From the sequence record FJ539132.1: 4,241 nucleotides of DNA; one strand, written 5' to 3'. The DNA comes from Qubevirus faecium. The position numbers and the translations under genes were made by a program. Below the pieces are notes generated by a model. The model saw only the letters and a list, made by a program, of their open reading frames with translations, was not told the origin of the DNA and ran no database searches. Of the stretch, positions 1-4,241 are shown piece by piece (positions within the stretch are counted from its first letter, which is position 1; the number at the start of each line of letters is the position of its first letter).

Positions 1-51
1 GGGGTAGGCCCCGTAAGGGGCCTGCCTTCACCGCACTACAGAGGAGAATCT
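1..51 (+). promoter_or_regulatory. 5' untranslated leader with terminal GGGG and a 5'-proximal hairpin (stem 5-12 / 17-24, GUAA tetraloop 13-16)
   Basis: Seen: AGGCCCC (6-12) is the exact reverse complement of GGGGCCT (17-23), extended by a U5-G24 wobble, with a GNRA-type loop GUAA. Established: Qbeta and MS2 RNAs begin with G-runs followed by a stable 5' hairpin; the complement of this end is the 3' CCC initiation site of the minus strand. Confidence 0.7.
41..46 (+). promoter_or_regulatory. Shine-Dalgarno sequence (GAGGAG) for the maturation protein gene
   Basis: Seen: GAGGAG at 41-46, 5 nt upstream of ATG 52. Confidence 0.7.
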
Positions 52-1374
52 ATGCCAGCCCTACCAAGAGGTCTTCGCTTTGGTTCGAATGGCGAAATCT
101 TAAACGATTTCAACGAGCTCTGGTTTCCGGAGCTCGTCTCATCCGAATTGAACTTAGGAACCTATAACCTCACGGGTTACATTAGTAACCTGCCGGGATA
201 CGAAGTGAAGGAGCGCAATAAAGGCTCTCATGTGCTTCGAACACCGTACCGTAGTACCGTGCCAGTAAACCATCTTGGATACAGGCCGGTTACGACAGTA
301 GAGTATAATCCACTGGGAACTTTCATCCGCCTGGATGGGGATGTAAAGTTTTCCGGAGGCTTGGTTAGCGCGTCGCTTAGACTTGACAACTACGTTGTCG
401 GTCTGGCTTCGCAGGCCGGTTTCGATTACCAGTCGGTAATCGGACCAAGGTTCTCATCGCAATTCTCCGCGTTTAGTACCAAATATGGTACTTTGCTCGG
501 GGAAGGGAGAGAAACACTTAGTTATCTTCTCCTGCTGTTTCGCAGAGTACGTGAAGGGATCCGCGCCGTAAGGCGTGGAGATCTCAAGCGTCTCAGGAAT
601 CTGGTTAGGAGCTACGAACCGACGTCCGTGAATGGACGTCGACAAGCAGCCTCCTTTTCAGGGACCTATCGCGACGAACTTGCCAATGGCAAGTGGAAAG
701 ACAGTAGTGCGAGCGACCTGTGGCTCGAATTCCGTTATGGGTTGATGCCGTTGTTCTACGACATACAATCTTTAATGGAAGACTTCATGCGTGTTCATAA
801 GAAAATCGCAAAAATTCAGCGATTCTCGGCTGGGCACGGTAAGCTCGTTGAGGTGTCCGGGACTTTCTACCCGGATGTCCACTTCGGCCTTGAGGTCACC
901 GCAGTGTTGCAGCGGCGTCATCGTTGGGGTGTCATATACCAGGATACTGGTTCTTATGCCACTTTCGACAATGGTCGGCTGGTCCCGGTGAAGGACTGGC
1001 AGACAGCGGCGTTTGCACTCCTTAACCCGGCTGAAACTGCATGGGAATTAACACCCTACAGTTTCGTTGCGGATTGGTTTGTGAACGTTGGTGATATGCT
1101 CGAGCAGATCGGACAACTCTATCGGCACGTCGACGTTGTCGACGGCTTTGATAGAAAGGACGTGAAACTCCGTAGCGTATCCGTGCGCGTGATTGCGAAC
1201 GGTGCAACGAACACACAGTTTGTCCTAAGACGAGCTAGTTTGTTGCATAGTTTCTATTCGCGCGTACATACCGTTGCGTTTCCGCAAATTTCACCACAAC
1301 TCGATACTGAGGTACGTAGCGTTAAGCACGTTATCGACAGTATCGCCCTTCTAACTCAGCGTTTTAAACGCTAA
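52..1374 (+). CDS. A2: Maturation protein (A2 / A protein), the pilus-binding virion protein; in Qbeta-type phages it also acts as the lysis protein
   Basis: Seen: 440-codon ORF, ATG at 52 with SD upstream, TAA stop at 1372-1374, first gene of the genome. Recalled: N-terminus MPALPRGLRFGSNGEILNDFNELWFPEL and internal blocks (FSAFS.KYGT, RAV.RGDL, LWLEFRYGLMPLFYDI, AWELTPYSFV.DWF.NVGDML, VVDGFDR.D, HV.DSI.LLTQR.KR) match Qbeta A2. Lysis function is inference from the Qbeta paradigm. Confidence 0.93.
   Translation: MPALPRGLRFGSNGEILNDFNELWFPELVSSELNLGTYNLTGYISNLPGYEVKERNKGSHVLRTPYRSTVPVNHLGYRPVTTVEYNPLGTFIRLDGDVKFSGGLVSASLRLDNYVVGLASQAGFDYQSVIGPRFSSQFSAFSTKYGTLLGEGRETLSYLLLLFRRVREGIRAVRRGDLKRLRNLVRSYEPTSVNGRRQAASFSGTYRDELANGKWKDSSASDLWLEFRYGLMPLFYDIQSLMEDFMRVHKKIAKIQRFSAGHGKLVEVSGTFYPDVHFGLEVTAVLQRRHRWGVIYQDTGSYATFDNGRLVPVKDWQTAAFALLNPAETAWELTPYSFVADWFVNVGDMLEQIGQLYRHVDVVDGFDRKDVKLRSVSVRVIANGATNTQFVLRRASLLHSFYSRVHTVAFPQISPQLDTEVRSVKHVIDSIALLTQRFKR
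1358..1372 (+). other. Small hairpin at the 3' end of the maturation gene (stem 1358-1363 / 1367-1372, loop UUA), overlapping the stop codon
   Basis: Seen: AGCGTT (1358-1363) pairs with AACGCT (1367-1372) around a 3-nt loop; UAA stop at 1372-1374. Function not determined from sequence. Confidence 0.4.
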
Positions 1375-1394
1375 ATCTTTGGGTCAATTTGATC

Positions 1395-1793
1395 ATGGCA
1401 AAATTAAATCAGGTAACACTTACCAAATTAGGTAAGGCGGGCGATCAGACTTTAACTCTTACTCCACGTGGGGTAAATCCCACTAACGGAGTGGCGTCGC
1501 TGTCCGAAGCTGGTGCTGTACCGGCTCTCGAGAAGCGAGTAACTGTGTCAGTTGCTCAGCCATCCCGTAACCGTAAGAACTATAAAGTTCAGATTAAGCT
1601 CCAAAACCCGACTGCATGCACGAAGGACGCATGTGACCCATCTGTGACGCGTTCCGCGTTCGCGGACCTAACGCTTTCGTTCACGTCGTATTCTACTGAC
1701 GCTGAACGTGCGCTGATTCGCACTGAATTGGCGGCTCTGTTGCAAGATCCTCTGATTGTCGATGCAATCGATAATCTGAACCCTGCATACTGA
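1395..1793 (+). CDS. Major coat (capsid) protein, 132 aa, terminated by a leaky UGA
   Basis: Seen: ATG at 1395 (the track's 1389 start is an upstream in-frame TTG giving MIM...; ATG 1395 gives MAKLNQ...), TGA at 1791-1793, two cysteines in ACTKDACD. Recalled: near-identity to Qbeta coat across PRGVNPTNGVASLS, PALEKRVTVSV, QPSRNRKNYKVQ, CDPSVTR, and C-terminal DAID.LNPAY. Confidence 0.95.
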   Translation: MAKLNQVTLTKLGKAGDQTLTLTPRGVNPTNGVASLSEAGAVPALEKRVTVSVAQPSRNRKNYKVQIKLQNPTACTKDACDPSVTRSAFADLTLSFTSYSTDAERALIRTELAALLQDPLIVDAIDNLNPAY

Positions 1794-2387
1794 GCGGCGT
1801 TATTGGCAGCCTCGTCTAGCGGTGGGGATAACCCAAAGCCAGACGTTCCGGATCGTCCAGACGTCAAACCGCCAGGCGGAACGGGCAGCTATCGCTGTCC
1901 GTTTACCTGTTACCGCCTCGGTAATATCATCGAGGTAGGGCAAAACGGTTCTCCTGACATCTATGCCAGGGGAGACGAGGTCCAGGTTATGTTCGATTAT
2001 GCTCTCGAGGATTTCCTTGGGAACACCAATTGGCGTAACTGGGATCAGCGACTATCAAATTATGATATAGCTAATCGTCGTCGTTGCCGAGGCAATGGTT
2101 ACGTTGACCTGGACGCAACTGCGATGCAGACCGACAGCTTTGTGCTATCCGGTAAGTATCCAGTGCGGAAGGTCAAGTTTCCAGGTGCCTTTGGCGCCCT
2201 CAAGTATCTCCTTAACATAAAGGATGATGCCTGGGTGGACTTGTCCGAGGTAACGGCCTACCGTTCCTATGGAATGGTCATCGGTTTCTGGACGGACTCT
2301 AAGAGCCCGCAGCTGCCGAGTGACTTCACCCAATTTGACAGTACGAATTGTCCTGTTCAGACGGTGATCGTCATACCCTCACTTTAA
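1395..2387 (+). CDS. A1: Read-through minor capsid protein A1 (coat plus C-terminal extension, about 330 aa with UGA decoded as Trp)
   Basis: Seen: the coat frame and the 1803-2387 ORF are the same reading frame (1395 and 1803 are both 0 mod 3); the track's M at 1803 is a TTG inside the extension, not an independent start. Recalled: extension blocks match the Qbeta A1 read-through domain (KPD.P..PD..PPGGTG.Y.CPF, LGNT.WR.WD.RLS, CRGNGY.DLDAT, PGAFG, VIGFW.D, FDFT.FD.T.CP.Q.VIV.P). Confidence 0.85.
1791..1793 (+). promoter_or_regulatory. Leaky UGA stop codon: programmed translational read-through site between coat and the A1 extension
   Basis: Seen: TGA at 1791-1793 is followed by an in-frame open frame of 197 sense codons up to TAA 2385-2387. 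Established: Qbeta coat UGA is occasionally read as Trp to make A1. Confidence 0.85.
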
Positions 2388-2395
2388 GCAACTTA

Positions 2396-2401
2396 AAGGA
2401 G
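2396..2401 (+). promoter_or_regulatory. Shine-Dalgarno sequence (AAGGAG) for the replicase gene
   Basis: Seen: AAGGAG at 2396-2401, 5 nt upstream of ATG 2407. Confidence 0.75.
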
Positions 2402-2402
2402 A

Positions 2403-2422
2403 TAGCATGTCTAAGACAGCTA
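2403..2422 (+). promoter_or_regulatory. Coat-protein translational operator hairpin covering the replicase start codon (8-bp stem, bulged A2407, 3-nt loop UAA 2412-2414)
   Basis: Seen: UAGC-A-UGUC (2403-2411) pairs with GACAGCUA (2415-2422); the unpaired bulge A is the A of the AUG at 2407-2409. Recalled: the Qbeta operator has the same 8-bp stem, bulged A and 3-nt loop, and coat dimers bind it to repress replicase translation. Confidence 0.75.
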
Positions 2423-4137
2423 GTCACAGAAAGAAAATTACTCACCTATTGAGTAAGGTCGACATCGACTTCGAAGACGACATCCATATGTCTATCGCCA
2501 ATGATCTTTTTAAGGCCTTTGGCGTTGCACCACTTACGTCAGCGGAGCAGTGTATCAACACTCCGTTCCCTGACACTTCGATGACTGCTGATGCATTTCG
2601 CATCGCGTATCTGCGGTCAGAGATCCTTAGTAAGTATAGTGCGCACCCTCTCGGTATTGATACCGAAGCAGTAGCTTGGGAGAAGTTCCTAGCTGCTGAA
2701 GAGGGCTGTAGACAAACGAACGAACGACTGTCGCAGGCTAAGTACCATGACAATTCCATTTTGTCATGGGGCGAGCGTGTTATCCACACTGCTCGTCGAA
2801 AAATACTTAAGCTTATAGGCGAGTCTGTTCCGCTCGGGGATGTGGCGCTGCGCTGCCGATTTTCTGGCGGCGCGACGACCTCGGTTAACCGTTTACACGG
2901 CCACCCGTCGTGGAAGCATGCCTGTCCGCAGGATGTTACCAAACGCGCATTCAAATACCTACAAGCGTATAAAATGGCTTGTGGTGACATCGTAGACTTA
3001 CGTGTCAATGAGGTGCGCACTTCGAATAAAGCAGTCACTGTTCCAAAGAACAGTAAGACCGATCGTTGCATTGCCATCGAACCCGGATGGAATATGTTTT
3101 TCCAACTGGGTGTCGGTGCGGTGCTACGCGATAGGTTGCGCCTTTGGGGGATTGACCTTAATGATCAATCCATCAATCAGCGCCTCGCACGCGATGCGTC
3201 ACAGCTTGACCATTTGGCCACTGTTGACTTATCCGCAGCAAGTGATTCAATCAGCCTTAAGCTGGTGGAGTTACTACTACCGCCTGACTGGTTTGGCGTC
3301 CTGACCGATCTCCGATCGGATCAGGGTATCCTACCTGATGGGCGTGCCGTTACCTACGAGAAAATATCCTCCATGGGTAATGGCTACACTTTCGAGCTTG
3401 AGTCGCTCATATTTGCAGCGATCGCTCGGAGTGTGTGCGAGTTACTGGATCTTGACCAATCAACTGTCAGCGTGTACGGAGATGATATAATCATCGATTC
3501 CCGTGCTGCTGCAACCCTTATGGATGTGTTCGAGTACGTTGGGTTCACCCCTAACAGAAAGAAGACCTTTGTAAGTGGTCCCTTTAGAGAGTCGTGCGGA
3601 AAGCACTGGCACTCTGGGGTTGATGTAACGCCTTTTTACATACGCCGCCCAATACGTTGCCTAGTCGACATGATACTTGTTCTGAATAGTATCTATCGGT
3701 GGGGCACGATTGACGGCGTATGGGATCCTAGGGTGCTGCCCGTATACCAGAAGTACGTGAATATGCTGCCGAGAAATTGGCGGCGTAACACGATACCTGA
3801 TGGTTACGGAGACGGCGCTCTCGTCGGATTGGCTACAACGAATCCGTTTGTTATAGTCAAGAATTTCTCGAGACTATACCCGGTATTAGTTGAAGTCCAG
3901 AAGGACGTCAAGCGTCACGAGTACGGCAGTTATTTATATGCCATGCTACGCGACCGCGAGACACGTTACAATCCCTTCCTGCGTGTCGCAGATGGGACTG
4001 GGTTTGATGAAGCACCGCTAGCTACTAGCCTTCGTCGCAAGACAGGTCGGTACAAAGTGGCGTGGATTCAGGACAGTGCCTTCATCCGGCCCCCGTATTT
4101 TCTTACGGGACTTCCCGAGGTGAAGCTTGCTAGCTAG
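2407..4137 (+). CDS. RNA-dependent RNA polymerase, replicase beta subunit (576 aa)
   Basis: Seen: ATG 2407 with SD, TAG stop at 4135-4137; palm motifs in frame: motif A TVDLSAASDSI (3220-3252), motif B SSMGNGYTFELESLIF (3367-3414), motif C YGDD (3475-3486). Recalled: N-terminus MSKTAS and many blocks (GIDTEAVAWEKFLAAE, CRFSGGATT, NKAVTVPKNSKTDRCIAIEPGWNMFFQLG, YEKISSMGNGYTFELESLIFA, FRESCGKH, TIDGVWDPR, IPDGYGDGALVG) match Qbeta replicase. Confidence 0.96.
   Translation: MSKTASHRKKITHLLSKVDIDFEDDIHMSIANDLFKAFGVAPLTSAEQCINTPFPDTSMTADAFRIAYLRSEILSKYSAHPLGIDTEAVAWEKFLAAEEGCRQTNERLSQAKYHDNSILSWGERVIHTARRKILKLIGESVPLGDVALRCRFSGGATTSVNRLHGHPSWKHACPQDVTKRAFKYLQAYKMACGDIVDLRVNEVRTSNKAVTVPKNSKTDRCIAIEPGWNMFFQLGVGAVLRDRLRLWGIDLNDQSINQRLARDASQLDHLATVDLSAASDSISLKLVELLLPPDWFGVLTDLRSDQGILPDGRAVTYEKISSMGNGYTFELESLIFAAIARSVCELLDLDQSTVSVYGDDIIIDSRAAATLMDVFEYVGFTPNRKKTFVSGPFRESCGKHWHSGVDVTPFYIRRPIRCLVDMILVLNSIYRWGTIDGVWDPRVLPVYQKYVNMLPRNWRRNTIPDGYGDGALVGLATTNPFVIVKNFSRLYPVLVEVQKDVKRHEYGSYLYAMLRDRETRYNPFLRVADGTGFDEAPLATSLRRKTGRYKVAWIQDSAFIRPPYFLTGLPEVKLAS
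3475..3486 (+). other. RdRp catalytic motif C (YGDD) within the replicase
   Basis: Seen: TAC GGA GAT GAT in the replicase frame (codon offset 356 from ATG 2407). Established: YGDD is the catalytic motif of levivirus replicases. Confidence 0.9.
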
Positions 4138-4148
4138 ACACTAGCTAG
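4130..4148 (+). other. Perfect hairpin over the replicase stop codon: two copies of the self-complementary octamer CUAGCUAG separated by ACA
   Basis: Seen: CTAGCTAG at 4130-4137 and again at 4141-4148 with loop ACA (4138-4140), giving an 8-bp perfect stem; the replicase UAG (4135-4137) is in the 5' arm. Confidence 0.6.
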
Positions 4149-4241
4149 TAATGGGAAGGGGCTCATTTGAGGCCCCGGAAGGAGAAAGAAAGAAAACTCC
4201 CTCCTGAGAGGGTGGGCTCTGCTTTGCCCTCTCTCCTCCCA
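4138..4241 (+). promoter_or_regulatory. 3' untranslated region with hairpins (for example 4158-4176 GGGGCU...GGCCCC; 4199-4212 CCCUC/GAGGG) and terminal ...CUCUCCUCCCA
   Basis: Seen: stem-loops as listed; pyrimidine-rich tail ending CCCA. Recalled: Qbeta RNA ends ...GCUUUGCCCUCUCUCCUCCCA, almost identical to 4221-4241. Established: replicase initiates opposite the 3' CCC, and the terminal A is added non-templated. Confidence 0.75.

What the first reader, a model, noticed from the sequence alone, without database searches (positions are those of the whole stretch)
1..4241. The whole window is one compact Qbeta-like ssRNA phage genome, end to end
The 5' GGGG and 3' CCCA termini, the four-protein/three-cistron layout and the sizes (A2 440 aa, coat 132 aa, A1 about 330 aa, replicase 576 aa) account for essentially every nucleotide. 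The sequence is therefore an RNA genome shown as DNA; annotation logic for a dsDNA host (promoters, both-strand ORFs, operons) does not apply. It is clearly related to Qbeta but not identical in the blocks I can recall, so it is probably another member or variant of the Qbeta-like group. This is a well-studied type of genome, not a new system.
Basis: partly seen in the sequence, partly recalled or inferred. Interest (0 to 1): 0.55.

Follow-up and report, generated by a model that had tools for sequence, protein, structure and literature searches.

The report
Known Qβ-like RNA phage genome (HB-P22)
The window is the complete 4,241-nt genome of an already sequenced F-specific RNA coliphage of the SP/NL95/FI group (Qubevirus faecium, almost certainly strain HB-P22), so it is ordinary; the only mildly interesting point is that its read-through domain has a different ancestry from the rest of the genome.

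Summary
Confirmed. The window is a complete allolevivirus genome written as DNA. It starts 5' GGGG and ends 3' CCCA. It encodes A2 (52-1374, 440 aa), coat (1395-1793, 132 aa, UGA stop), read-through A1 (1395-2387, 330 aa) and replicase (2407-4137, 576 aa), and 95.4% of it is coding. All four proteins hit the levivirus Pfam families and solved Qβ structures. The window is collinear end to end with genogroup IV phages (HB-P24 83.8%, NL95 83.3%, SP 82.3%). It matches Qβ itself only in patches (about 72%), and matches nothing in E. coli genomes or plasmids. Its A2, coat and replicase are letter-for-letter NCBI ACT66749, ACT66750 and ACT66752, on a 4,241-nt Qubevirus faecium record. By accession order and elimination this is strain HB-P22, so it is already known. 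The Qβ-type operator hairpin, 5' hairpin, 3' domain and long-range pseudoknot partners are all present. One refinement: the read-through extension groups with the SP clade while the replicase groups with NL95/HB-P24, which indicates an old natural recombination. Six independent SRA contigs, about 91% identical throughout, show it is not an assembly chimera.

The parts
1..51 (+). 5' UTR beginning GGGG, with a 5'-terminal hairpin (2-27; core GGCCCC-GUAA-GGGGCC at 7-22) and a GAGGAG Shine-Dalgarno sequence upstream of the A2 AUG
   Evidence: Fold -26.2 kcal/mol. The hairpin is kept in HB-P24, NL95, BR1, BR8 and Qβ. Sequence.
52..1374 (+). A2 maturation protein gene (440 aa). By homology it is the pilus-binding protein and, in alloleviviruses, the lysis protein
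   Evidence: PF03863 4.5e-85. Qβ A2 structures 5VLZ and 5MNT, E about 1e-120. Exact match to ACT66749.1.
1298..1411 (+). Replicase/S1 binding region S, placed by homology only
   Evidence: Mapped from the misc_feature 1331-1443 of SP record X07489 through the genome alignment.
1395..1793 (+). Coat protein gene (132 aa) ending in a leaky UGA at 1791-1793
   Evidence: PF01819 3.5e-56. Qβ coat structures 1QBE and 5KIP, E about 1e-63. Exact match to ACT66750.1. The context UAC-UGA-GCR-GCG-UUA is conserved in all 13 genogroup IV sequences.
1395..2387 (+). A1 read-through minor capsid protein (330 aa: coat, UGA read as an amino acid, then a 197-aa extension)
   Evidence: Single in-frame UGA, then an open frame to UAA. 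The same annotation is used in HB-P24, NL95 and SP.
1794..2387 (+). Read-through extension. Its ancestry differs from the flanking genes: it is SP/BR-like rather than NL95/HB-P24-like
   Evidence: PF16814 1.3e-48. Qβ A1 domain 3RLC 1.1e-48. Amino-acid identity 84% to SP against 68% to HB-P24. Max-chi2 segment 1815-2366, matched by 0 of 300 permutations. ML quartet RELL 0.00 for grouping with NL95.
2404..2421 (+). Qβ-type coat-protein operator hairpin AGC-A-UGUC-UAA-GACA-GCU. It has a 7-bp stem, a bulged A that is the A of the replicase AUG (2407), and a 3-nt loop. An AGGAG Shine-Dalgarno sequence lies just upstream
   Evidence: Fold. The core GC.UG.C.AAGACAGC is invariant in all genogroup IV sequences and Qβ.
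2407..4137 (+). Replicase beta-subunit (RdRp, 576 aa), with the YGDD motif at 3475-3486
   Evidence: PF03431 1.5e-242. Qβ replicase 3MMP 8e-203. Exact match to ACT66752.1. YGDD position.
2594..2921 (+). Replicase/S1 binding region M, placed by homology only
   Evidence: Mapped from the SP X07489 misc_feature 2629-2956. The stretch 2755-3100 is among the most conserved parts of the genome across genogroup IV.
3028..3034 (+). AAAGCAG, the internal partner of the long-range pseudoknot with the 3'-terminal hairpin loop, 1191 nt upstream of that loop
   Evidence: Invariant in all seven genogroup IV genomes and in Qβ at the homologous column. It is the only + strand copy in the window. PMC3561173 describes the Qβ pseudoknot about 1200 nt upstream of the loop.
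4129..4148 (+). Hairpin containing the replicase UAG stop codon
   Evidence: Consensus fold with compensatory changes at one pair.
4138..4241 (+). 3' UTR forming the 3'-terminal domain. It is closed by UGGGA/UCCCA and contains a hairpin with a large A-rich loop (4181-4200) and the terminal U1 hairpin (4214-4229; loop holds CUGCUUU at 4219-4225). It ends in CCCA
   Evidence: Consensus structure -50.4 kcal/mol; 8 of 40 pairs show compensatory changes. The loop is invariant, Qβ included. PMC3561173 lists the U1 UGCUU loop and the A-rich hairpin V as hallmarks of ssRNA phages.

Best explanation
The window is the full-length plus-strand RNA genome, written as DNA, of an F-specific RNA coliphage of Allolevivirus genogroup IV (genus Qubevirus, species Q. 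faecium). It is almost certainly the deposited strain HB-P22. It should work as Qβ and SP do. The RNA serves as the mRNA for A2 (maturation, pilus binding and lysis), coat, a small fraction of A1 made by read-through of the coat UGA, and the replicase beta-subunit. Coat dimers bind the hairpin that holds the replicase start codon and shut off replicase translation. The replicase, together with host EF-Tu, EF-Ts and S1, recognises the internal S and M sites. It is brought to the 3' CCCA end by long-range pairing between 3028-3034 and the 3' hairpin loop. What is shown here: gene content, homology, complete termini, conserved RNA elements, and identity of three proteins to the NCBI record. What is inferred from Qβ and SP biology: read-through frequency, A2 lysis through MurA, the host factors and the F-pilus host range.
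For: End-to-end collinear megablast matches only to Qubevirus genomes, with the same four annotated genes. Four Pfam levivirus families and solved Qβ structures for all four proteins. Exact protein identity to ACT66749.1, ACT66750.1 and ACT66752.1 on a 4241-nt NCBI Qubevirus faecium record. Those accessions come directly before HB-P24's ACT66753-56, and HB-P22 is the only listed genogroup IV strain absent from the phage collection. RdRp amino-acid identity is 82.6% to the species exemplar FI and 55.6% to Qβ, against the 80% species and 50% genus cut-offs (PMC8743537). Termini match those of full-length relatives. Operator hairpin, 3' domain with 8 compensatory pairs, and invariant pseudoknot partners. 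No match in 28 Gb of E. coli genomes or 7.3 Gb of plasmids.
Against: The nucleotide record itself (presumed FJ539132) is not in the tool collections. The strain name therefore rests on exact matches for three proteins, the record length, accession order and elimination. Rfam has no model that recognises any of the RNA elements. The individual hairpin folds are not significantly better than shuffled sequence (z from -1.1 to -1.7), so their support comes from conservation and covariation, not energy. That the molecule is RNA cannot be read from the letters.
Confidence: 0.97

Rival explanations
1. The contig is a laboratory or assembly chimera of an NL95-like strain and an SP-like strain, for example from a mixed plaque or RT-PCR template switching. 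That would explain why the read-through domain groups with a different clade.
For: There is a sharp mosaic. The segment 1815-2366 is SP-like at 79 of 104 informative sites, against 107 of 309 elsewhere, and no permutation out of 300 matched this. The breakpoints fall close to the borders of the read-through extension.
Against: Six near-full-length contigs from independent SRA runs (SRR24138264, SRR24138265, SRR24138358, SRR24138291, SRR17509918, SRR30895311) are 90-91% identical to the window across every 300-nt window, on both sides of both junctions. The 'SP-like' segment is only about 81% identical to SP, BR1 and BR8, so no sequenced strain could be the donor. All reading frames and RNA elements are intact.
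Confidence: 0.02
2. It represents a new species or genogroup of allolevivirus rather than a member of Qubevirus faecium.
For: The best whole-genome nucleotide identity in the phage collection is only 83.8%. A2 is only 76-83% identical, and the read-through extension 68-84% identical, to other genogroup IV strains.
Against: RdRp amino-acid identity is 82.6-90.5% to all genogroup IV strains, including the exemplar FI. That is above the 80% species cut-off. NCBI already labels these exact proteins Qubevirus faecium.
Confidence: 0.03
3. The mosaic signal is not recombination but lineage-specific rate acceleration of the read-through domain in the NL95/HB-P24 clade, with long-branch attraction as a result.
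For: In the read-through region NL95 and HB-P24 are about equally distant (68-71% nucleotide identity) from the window, the SP clade and FI. Identity between the window and SP there (81%) is about the same as genome-wide. The read-through domain is the least conserved coding region.
Against: Under HKY+Gamma maximum likelihood, which tolerates unequal branches, the window+NL95 grouping gets a zero-length internal branch and RELL 0.00 in the read-through region (delta lnL 5.4 to 10.6). The same grouping gets RELL 0.99-1.00 (delta lnL about 20) in the adjacent 5' part of the replicase gene. Quartet-informative sites run 26:7 one way in the read-through region and 1:22 the other way in the replicase 5' part.
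Confidence: 0.25

Closest known systems
Enterobacteria phage FI strain HB-P22 (Qubevirus faecium; presumed GenBank FJ539132; proteins ACT66749-ACT66752; Friedman et al. 2009, J Virol 83:11233)
   Same: A2, coat and replicase are exact matches, and the record has the same length of 4241 nt.
   Different: Nothing detected. The nucleotide record could not be fetched for a direct comparison, and A1 (ACT66751) was not looked up.
Strains HB-P24 (FJ539133) and NL95 (AF059243), genogroup IV
   Same: Best overall matches at 83.8% and 83.3% nucleotide identity. Same gene order and termini. Replicase 90% and coat 91-94% amino-acid identity. They group with the window for coat and replicase.
   Different: The read-through extension is only 68% identical in amino acids and 69-70% in nucleotides, and it does not group with the window. 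A2 is 1-2 aa longer.
Phage SP (X07489) and strains BR1 and BR8, genogroup IV
   Same: Same architecture. The read-through extension is the closest available (about 84% aa). The annotated S and M replicase-binding regions map onto the window.
   Different: A2 is 450 aa (10 aa longer) and 76-78% identical. The 5' part of the replicase gene is only 68-75% identical in nucleotides.
Phage Qβ (Qubevirus durum, genogroup III)
   Same: Same four proteins, leaky UGA, operator hairpin core, 3'-terminal sequence UCUCUCCUCCCA, U1 loop and internal pseudoknot partner. Solved Qβ structures match all four proteins.
   Different: A different species. Amino-acid identity is 46% for A2, 77% for coat, 58% for A1 and 56% for replicase. 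Only about 30% of the genome aligns by megablast, at about 72%.

Membership tests
Allolevivirus / genus Qubevirus (Fiersviridae) | Small linear genome of about 4.2 kb with gene order maturation, coat, replicase on one strand | tested here: met
   4241 nt; ORFs at 52-1374, 1395-1793 and 2407-4137, all on the + strand; Pfam families.
Allolevivirus / genus Qubevirus (Fiersviridae) | Minor capsid protein A1 made by read-through of a leaky coat stop codon (PMC3561173) | tested here: met
   A single UGA at 1791-1793 is followed by a 197-codon in-frame extension that matches PF16814 and PDB 3RLC. The stop context is conserved in 13 genomes. Actual read-through is not testable here.
Allolevivirus / genus Qubevirus (Fiersviridae) | No separate lysis gene; the maturation protein A2 causes lysis | tested here: inconclusive
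   No additional + strand ORF of at least 90 codons is conserved across the 13 genomes, and A2 is homologous to Qβ A2. Shorter ORFs were not checked for conservation. Lysis activity and MurA targeting cannot be tested in silico.
Allolevivirus / genus Qubevirus (Fiersviridae) | RdRp at least 50% identical in amino acids to genus members (PMC8743537) | tested here: met
   55.6% to Qβ strain BZ1 and 82.6-90.5% to genogroup IV strains.
Allolevivirus / genus Qubevirus (Fiersviridae) | Qβ-type translational operator: hairpin with a 3-nt loop and a bulged A that holds the replicase AUG | tested here: met
   2404-2421; core invariant across genogroup IV and Qβ. Coat binding is not testable.
Allolevivirus / genus Qubevirus (Fiersviridae) | Complete termini: 5' GGGG and 3' CCCA, with a 3' domain carrying the conserved U1 loop | tested here: met
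Allolevivirus / genus Qubevirus (Fiersviridae) | The genome is single-stranded RNA and infects F-piliated E. coli | not testable with these tools
   Indirect only. All matches are RNA coliphages, and there is no match in E. coli chromosomes or plasmids.
Species Qubevirus faecium (genogroup IV) | RdRp at least 80% identical in amino acids to the exemplar FI 4184 b (PMC8743537) | tested here: met
   82.6% in a global alignment that includes FI's 10-aa longer annotated N-terminus. NCBI labels these exact proteins Qubevirus faecium.
Strain HB-P22 (deposited record) | Sequence identity to the deposited record | tested here: inconclusive
   Three of the four proteins are exact matches on a 4241-nt NCBI record. 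The strain name is inferred from accession order and from the genogroup IV strain list in PMC6963950. The nucleotide record is not available.

The most novel reading that the evidence does not exclude
The HB-P22 lineage, or alternatively its NL95/HB-P24 sisters, carries a read-through (A1) domain obtained by natural homologous recombination between diverged genogroup IV alloleviviruses, with breakpoints near the borders of the domain. This would be modular exchange of a virion surface domain in a group for which I found natural recombination described only in leviviruses (GI-JS strains, PMC3499819). No report for alloleviviruses turned up in the searchable library, but Friedman et al. 2009 could not be read.
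Probability: 0.55. Interest if true: 0.3.

Novelty: already known. Interest (0 to 1): 0.1.

Why it matters
It matters little as a discovery. This genome type has been a textbook model since the 1960s, and this particular sequence has been in GenBank since 2009. The practical value is correct handling. The window should be annotated as a plus-strand RNA virus, with no promoters, no minus-strand genes and one programmed read-through, and it should be typed as genogroup IV. Genogroup IV is used in faecal source tracking as an animal-associated marker (PMC6963950). The mosaic ancestry of the A1 domain is a modest addition. If confirmed, it shows that recombination shapes allolevivirus diversity, and that typing based on a single gene can disagree between regions.

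Tried and rejected
1. Rfam scan at E<=1 on both strands found no family, so the RNA elements had to be supported by comparative alignment instead.

2. Fetching the presumed source record failed. FJ539132.1 is not in the collections, and the exact replicase has no contig on record.

3. Friedman et al. 2009 (by DOI and as PMC2772794) and Klovins et al. 1998 (PMC1369672) are not held. What those papers say about HB-P22 or about recombination could not be checked.

4. Single-sequence folding energies of the 5' hairpin, operator and 3' UTR were not significant against shuffles (z from -1.1 to -1.7). The coat-start region has no notable structure (z +0.8).

5. The 7-mer pseudoknot complement is not statistically rare on its own: 2 matches counting both strands against 0.55 expected, and 24 of 200 shuffles did as well. 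Its weight comes from positional invariance across species.

6. The antisense 211-aa ORF (240-codon open frame, 2445-3164, minus strand) was considered as a possible gene. It was rejected because it is interrupted in all 12 relatives, including those about 91% identical.

7. A DNA-replicon origin was rejected: no megablast match in E. coli genomes or plasmids.

8. An assembly chimera was rejected.
Full report
**Observation.** The window begins GGGGTAGGCCCC and ends CTCTCCTCCCA. The + strand carries ORFs at 52-1374 (440 aa), 1395-1793 (132 aa, ending in UGA) and 2407-4137 (576 aa). An open in-frame continuation of the coat frame runs from 1794 to UAA at 2385-2387, giving a 330-aa read-through product. 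The mechanical ORF list starts the coat frame at TTG 1389, but the ATG at 1395 matches the annotated starts of all relatives. Coding sequence covers 95.4% of the window.

**What it is.** The four products match Pfam Phage_mat-A (4.5e-85), Levi_coat (3.5e-56), Read-through (1.3e-48) and RNA_replicase_B (1.5e-242). They also match solved Qβ structures:
- A2: 5VLZ and 5MNT, E about 1e-120.
- A1 domain: 3RLC, 1e-48.
- Replicase: 3MMP, 8e-203.
- Coat: 1QBE and 5KIP, about 1e-63.

The replicase has YGDD at 3475-3486.

Megablast against 50,697 phage records finds only Qubevirus genomes. Fourteen of them are covered over at least 80% of the query in one collinear place. The best are HB-P24 (83.8%, positions 1-4241 against 1-4243), NL95 (83.3%) and SP (82.3%). 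Qβ strains match only in patches at about 72%. The annotated gene order and boundaries in these records are the same as in the window. There is no match in 28 Gb of complete E. coli genomes or 7.3 Gb of plasmids.

**Identity.** An exact-sequence look-up finds the window's A2, coat and replicase in NCBI as ACT66749.1, ACT66750.1 and ACT66752.1. All are labelled Qubevirus faecium and lie on a 4241-nt record. These accessions immediately precede ACT66753-56 of FJ539133, strain HB-P24. The published list of genogroup IV strains is SP, FI, BR1, BR8, HB-P22, HB-P24 and NL95 (PMC6963950), and every one except HB-P22 is present in the phage collection. The window is therefore almost certainly HB-P22, a bird isolate presumably filed as FJ539132. 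The record itself is not held, so the strain name is an inference, not a direct match.

By the ICTV criteria (species 80%, genus 50% RdRp amino-acid identity; PMC8743537), replicase identity of 82.6% to FI and 55.6% to Qβ places the window in Qubevirus faecium.

**RNA elements.** Support comes from comparison with relatives, not from folding energy.
- **5' hairpin.** A stable hairpin at 2-27 is kept in HB-P24, NL95, BR1, BR8 and Qβ.
- **Operator.** The replicase start lies in the hairpin AGC-A-UGUC-UAA-GACA-GCU (2404-2421). It has a 3-nt loop, and its bulged A is the A of the AUG. This is the Qβ-type coat-protein operator as I know it from the Qβ literature. Its core is invariant in all genogroup IV sequences and in Qβ.
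- **3' domain.** The 3' UTR folds into a domain closed by UGGGA/UCCCA. Eight of its 40 consensus pairs show compensatory changes. It includes a hairpin with a large A-rich loop and the terminal U1 hairpin.
- **Pseudoknot.** The U1 loop CUGCUUU (4219-4225) and its complement AAAGCAG (3028-3034, 1191 nt upstream) are invariant in every genogroup IV genome and in Qβ. This matches the long-range pseudoknot about 1200 nt upstream that is essential for Qβ replication, and the conserved UGCUU loop (PMC3561173).
- **S and M sites.** The sites annotated in SP map to about 1298-1411 and 2594-2921. This is placement by homology only.
- **Caveats.** Rfam has no hit, and the single-sequence fold z-scores are weak.

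**Mechanism.** This is inferred from Qβ and SP biology (PMC6071253, PMC3561173, PMC4176380). The RNA is the mRNA. A2 binds the F pilus and, in alloleviviruses, causes lysis; in Qβ it does so by inhibiting MurA. About 5% of ribosomes read through the coat UGA to make A1. Coat dimers repress replicase translation at the operator. The replicase, together with EF-Tu, EF-Ts and S1, uses the M site and long-range interactions to start minus-strand synthesis at the 3' end. None of these activities can be tested here.

**Mosaic ancestry.** This is the one non-trivial point.
- **Protein identity.** A2 and replicase are closest to HB-P24 and NL95 (83% and 90.5% to HB-P24), but the read-through extension is closest to SP, BR1 and BR8 (84% against 68%).
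- **Sliding windows.** The switch appears at about 1800-2350. The opposite contrast appears at 2455-2754 (86-88% against 68%).
- **Neighbour-joining trees.** The window groups with NL95/HB-P24 in coat and replicase segments (82-95% bootstrap) and with the SP clade in the read-through segment (82.5%).
- **Maximum chi-square scan.** It picks 1815-2366: 79 SP-like against 25 NL95-like sites inside, and 107 against 202 outside. No permutation out of 300 reached this.
- **Quartet sites with FI as fourth taxon.** They run 26:7:11 in favour of window+SP in the read-through extension, and 22:1:5 in favour of window+NL95 in the 5' part of the replicase gene.
- **HKY+Gamma ML quartet test.** I wrote this test for the purpose. 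It gives window+NL95 RELL 0.00 in the read-through region and 0.99-1.00 in the replicase 5' region, with two different choices of representatives.

The incongruence therefore survives a model that tolerates unequal rates, and it points to recombination within genogroup IV. The direction is unresolved. In the read-through region the NL95/HB-P24 sequences are about equally distant (68-71%) from everything else, so they may be the ones that acquired a foreign domain. A2 and the replicase 3' end give mixed signals.

**Not a chimera.** Six near-full-length contigs assembled from independent SRA runs are 90-91% identical to the window in every 300-nt window, across both junctions. The mosaic is therefore a property of a circulating lineage.

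**Other ORFs.** The 240-codon antisense open frame at 2445-3164 and the smaller off-frame ORFs are not conserved in any of 12 relatives. They are chance.

**Verdict.** The genome is already known and interest is low.

Noticed in passing
window 1794-2387, with contrast at 2455-2754: The read-through extension groups with the SP/BR1/BR8 clade, while coat and replicase group with NL95/HB-P24. Max-chi2, quartet-site and ML quartet tests all support phylogenetic incongruence. Which lineage is the recombinant is unresolved.
   Followed up: yes
window 768-1067 and 3755-4137: Two further stretches are as close or closer to the SP clade than to NL95/HB-P24 (84-90% against 78-86%). ML quartets are ambiguous for A2 and mildly favour window+SP for the replicase 3' end (RELL about 0.65). 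There may be additional, weaker mosaic segments.
   Followed up: partly
window 2445-3164, minus strand: A 240-codon open frame (211 aa from its ATG) lies antisense to the replicase gene. It is unique to the window and interrupted in all 12 relatives, so it is a chance ORF.
   Followed up: yes
L008-L013 (Logan contigs from SRR24138264, SRR24138265, SRR24138358, SRR24138291, SRR17509918, SRR30895311): An HB-P22-like lineage about 9% diverged from the window is present in several recent sequencing runs. This is closer to the window than any named strain in the phage collection. The sample metadata are unknown.
   Followed up: partly
L010:2339 (SRR17509918 contig), homologous to window 2407: This relative has GUG instead of AUG as the replicase start, so the bulged A of the operator hairpin is a G. 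Either the bulge identity is tolerated or this is an assembly or sequencing variant.
   Followed up: no
window 4231 (pairs with 4212): In the U1 stem the window has a U opposite a U, a mismatch. The other genogroup IV genomes have U-A and Qβ has A-U at that pair. No SRA contig reaches this position to confirm it.
   Followed up: no
L006 (FI, EF068134) and L003 (SP, X07489): The FI record lacks about 35 nt at the 5' end and 14 nt at the 3' end relative to the window, and it annotates the replicase from an upstream start (586 aa). The old SP record has GGGGGG where all other strains have GCCCC in the 5' hairpin, which breaks the stem and is probably a sequencing error.
   Followed up: no
window 1-4241: Rfam release 15 returns no match even at E<=1. 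The well-characterised allolevivirus operator, 3' domain and M site appear to have no curated RNA family that detects this genome.
   Followed up: partly
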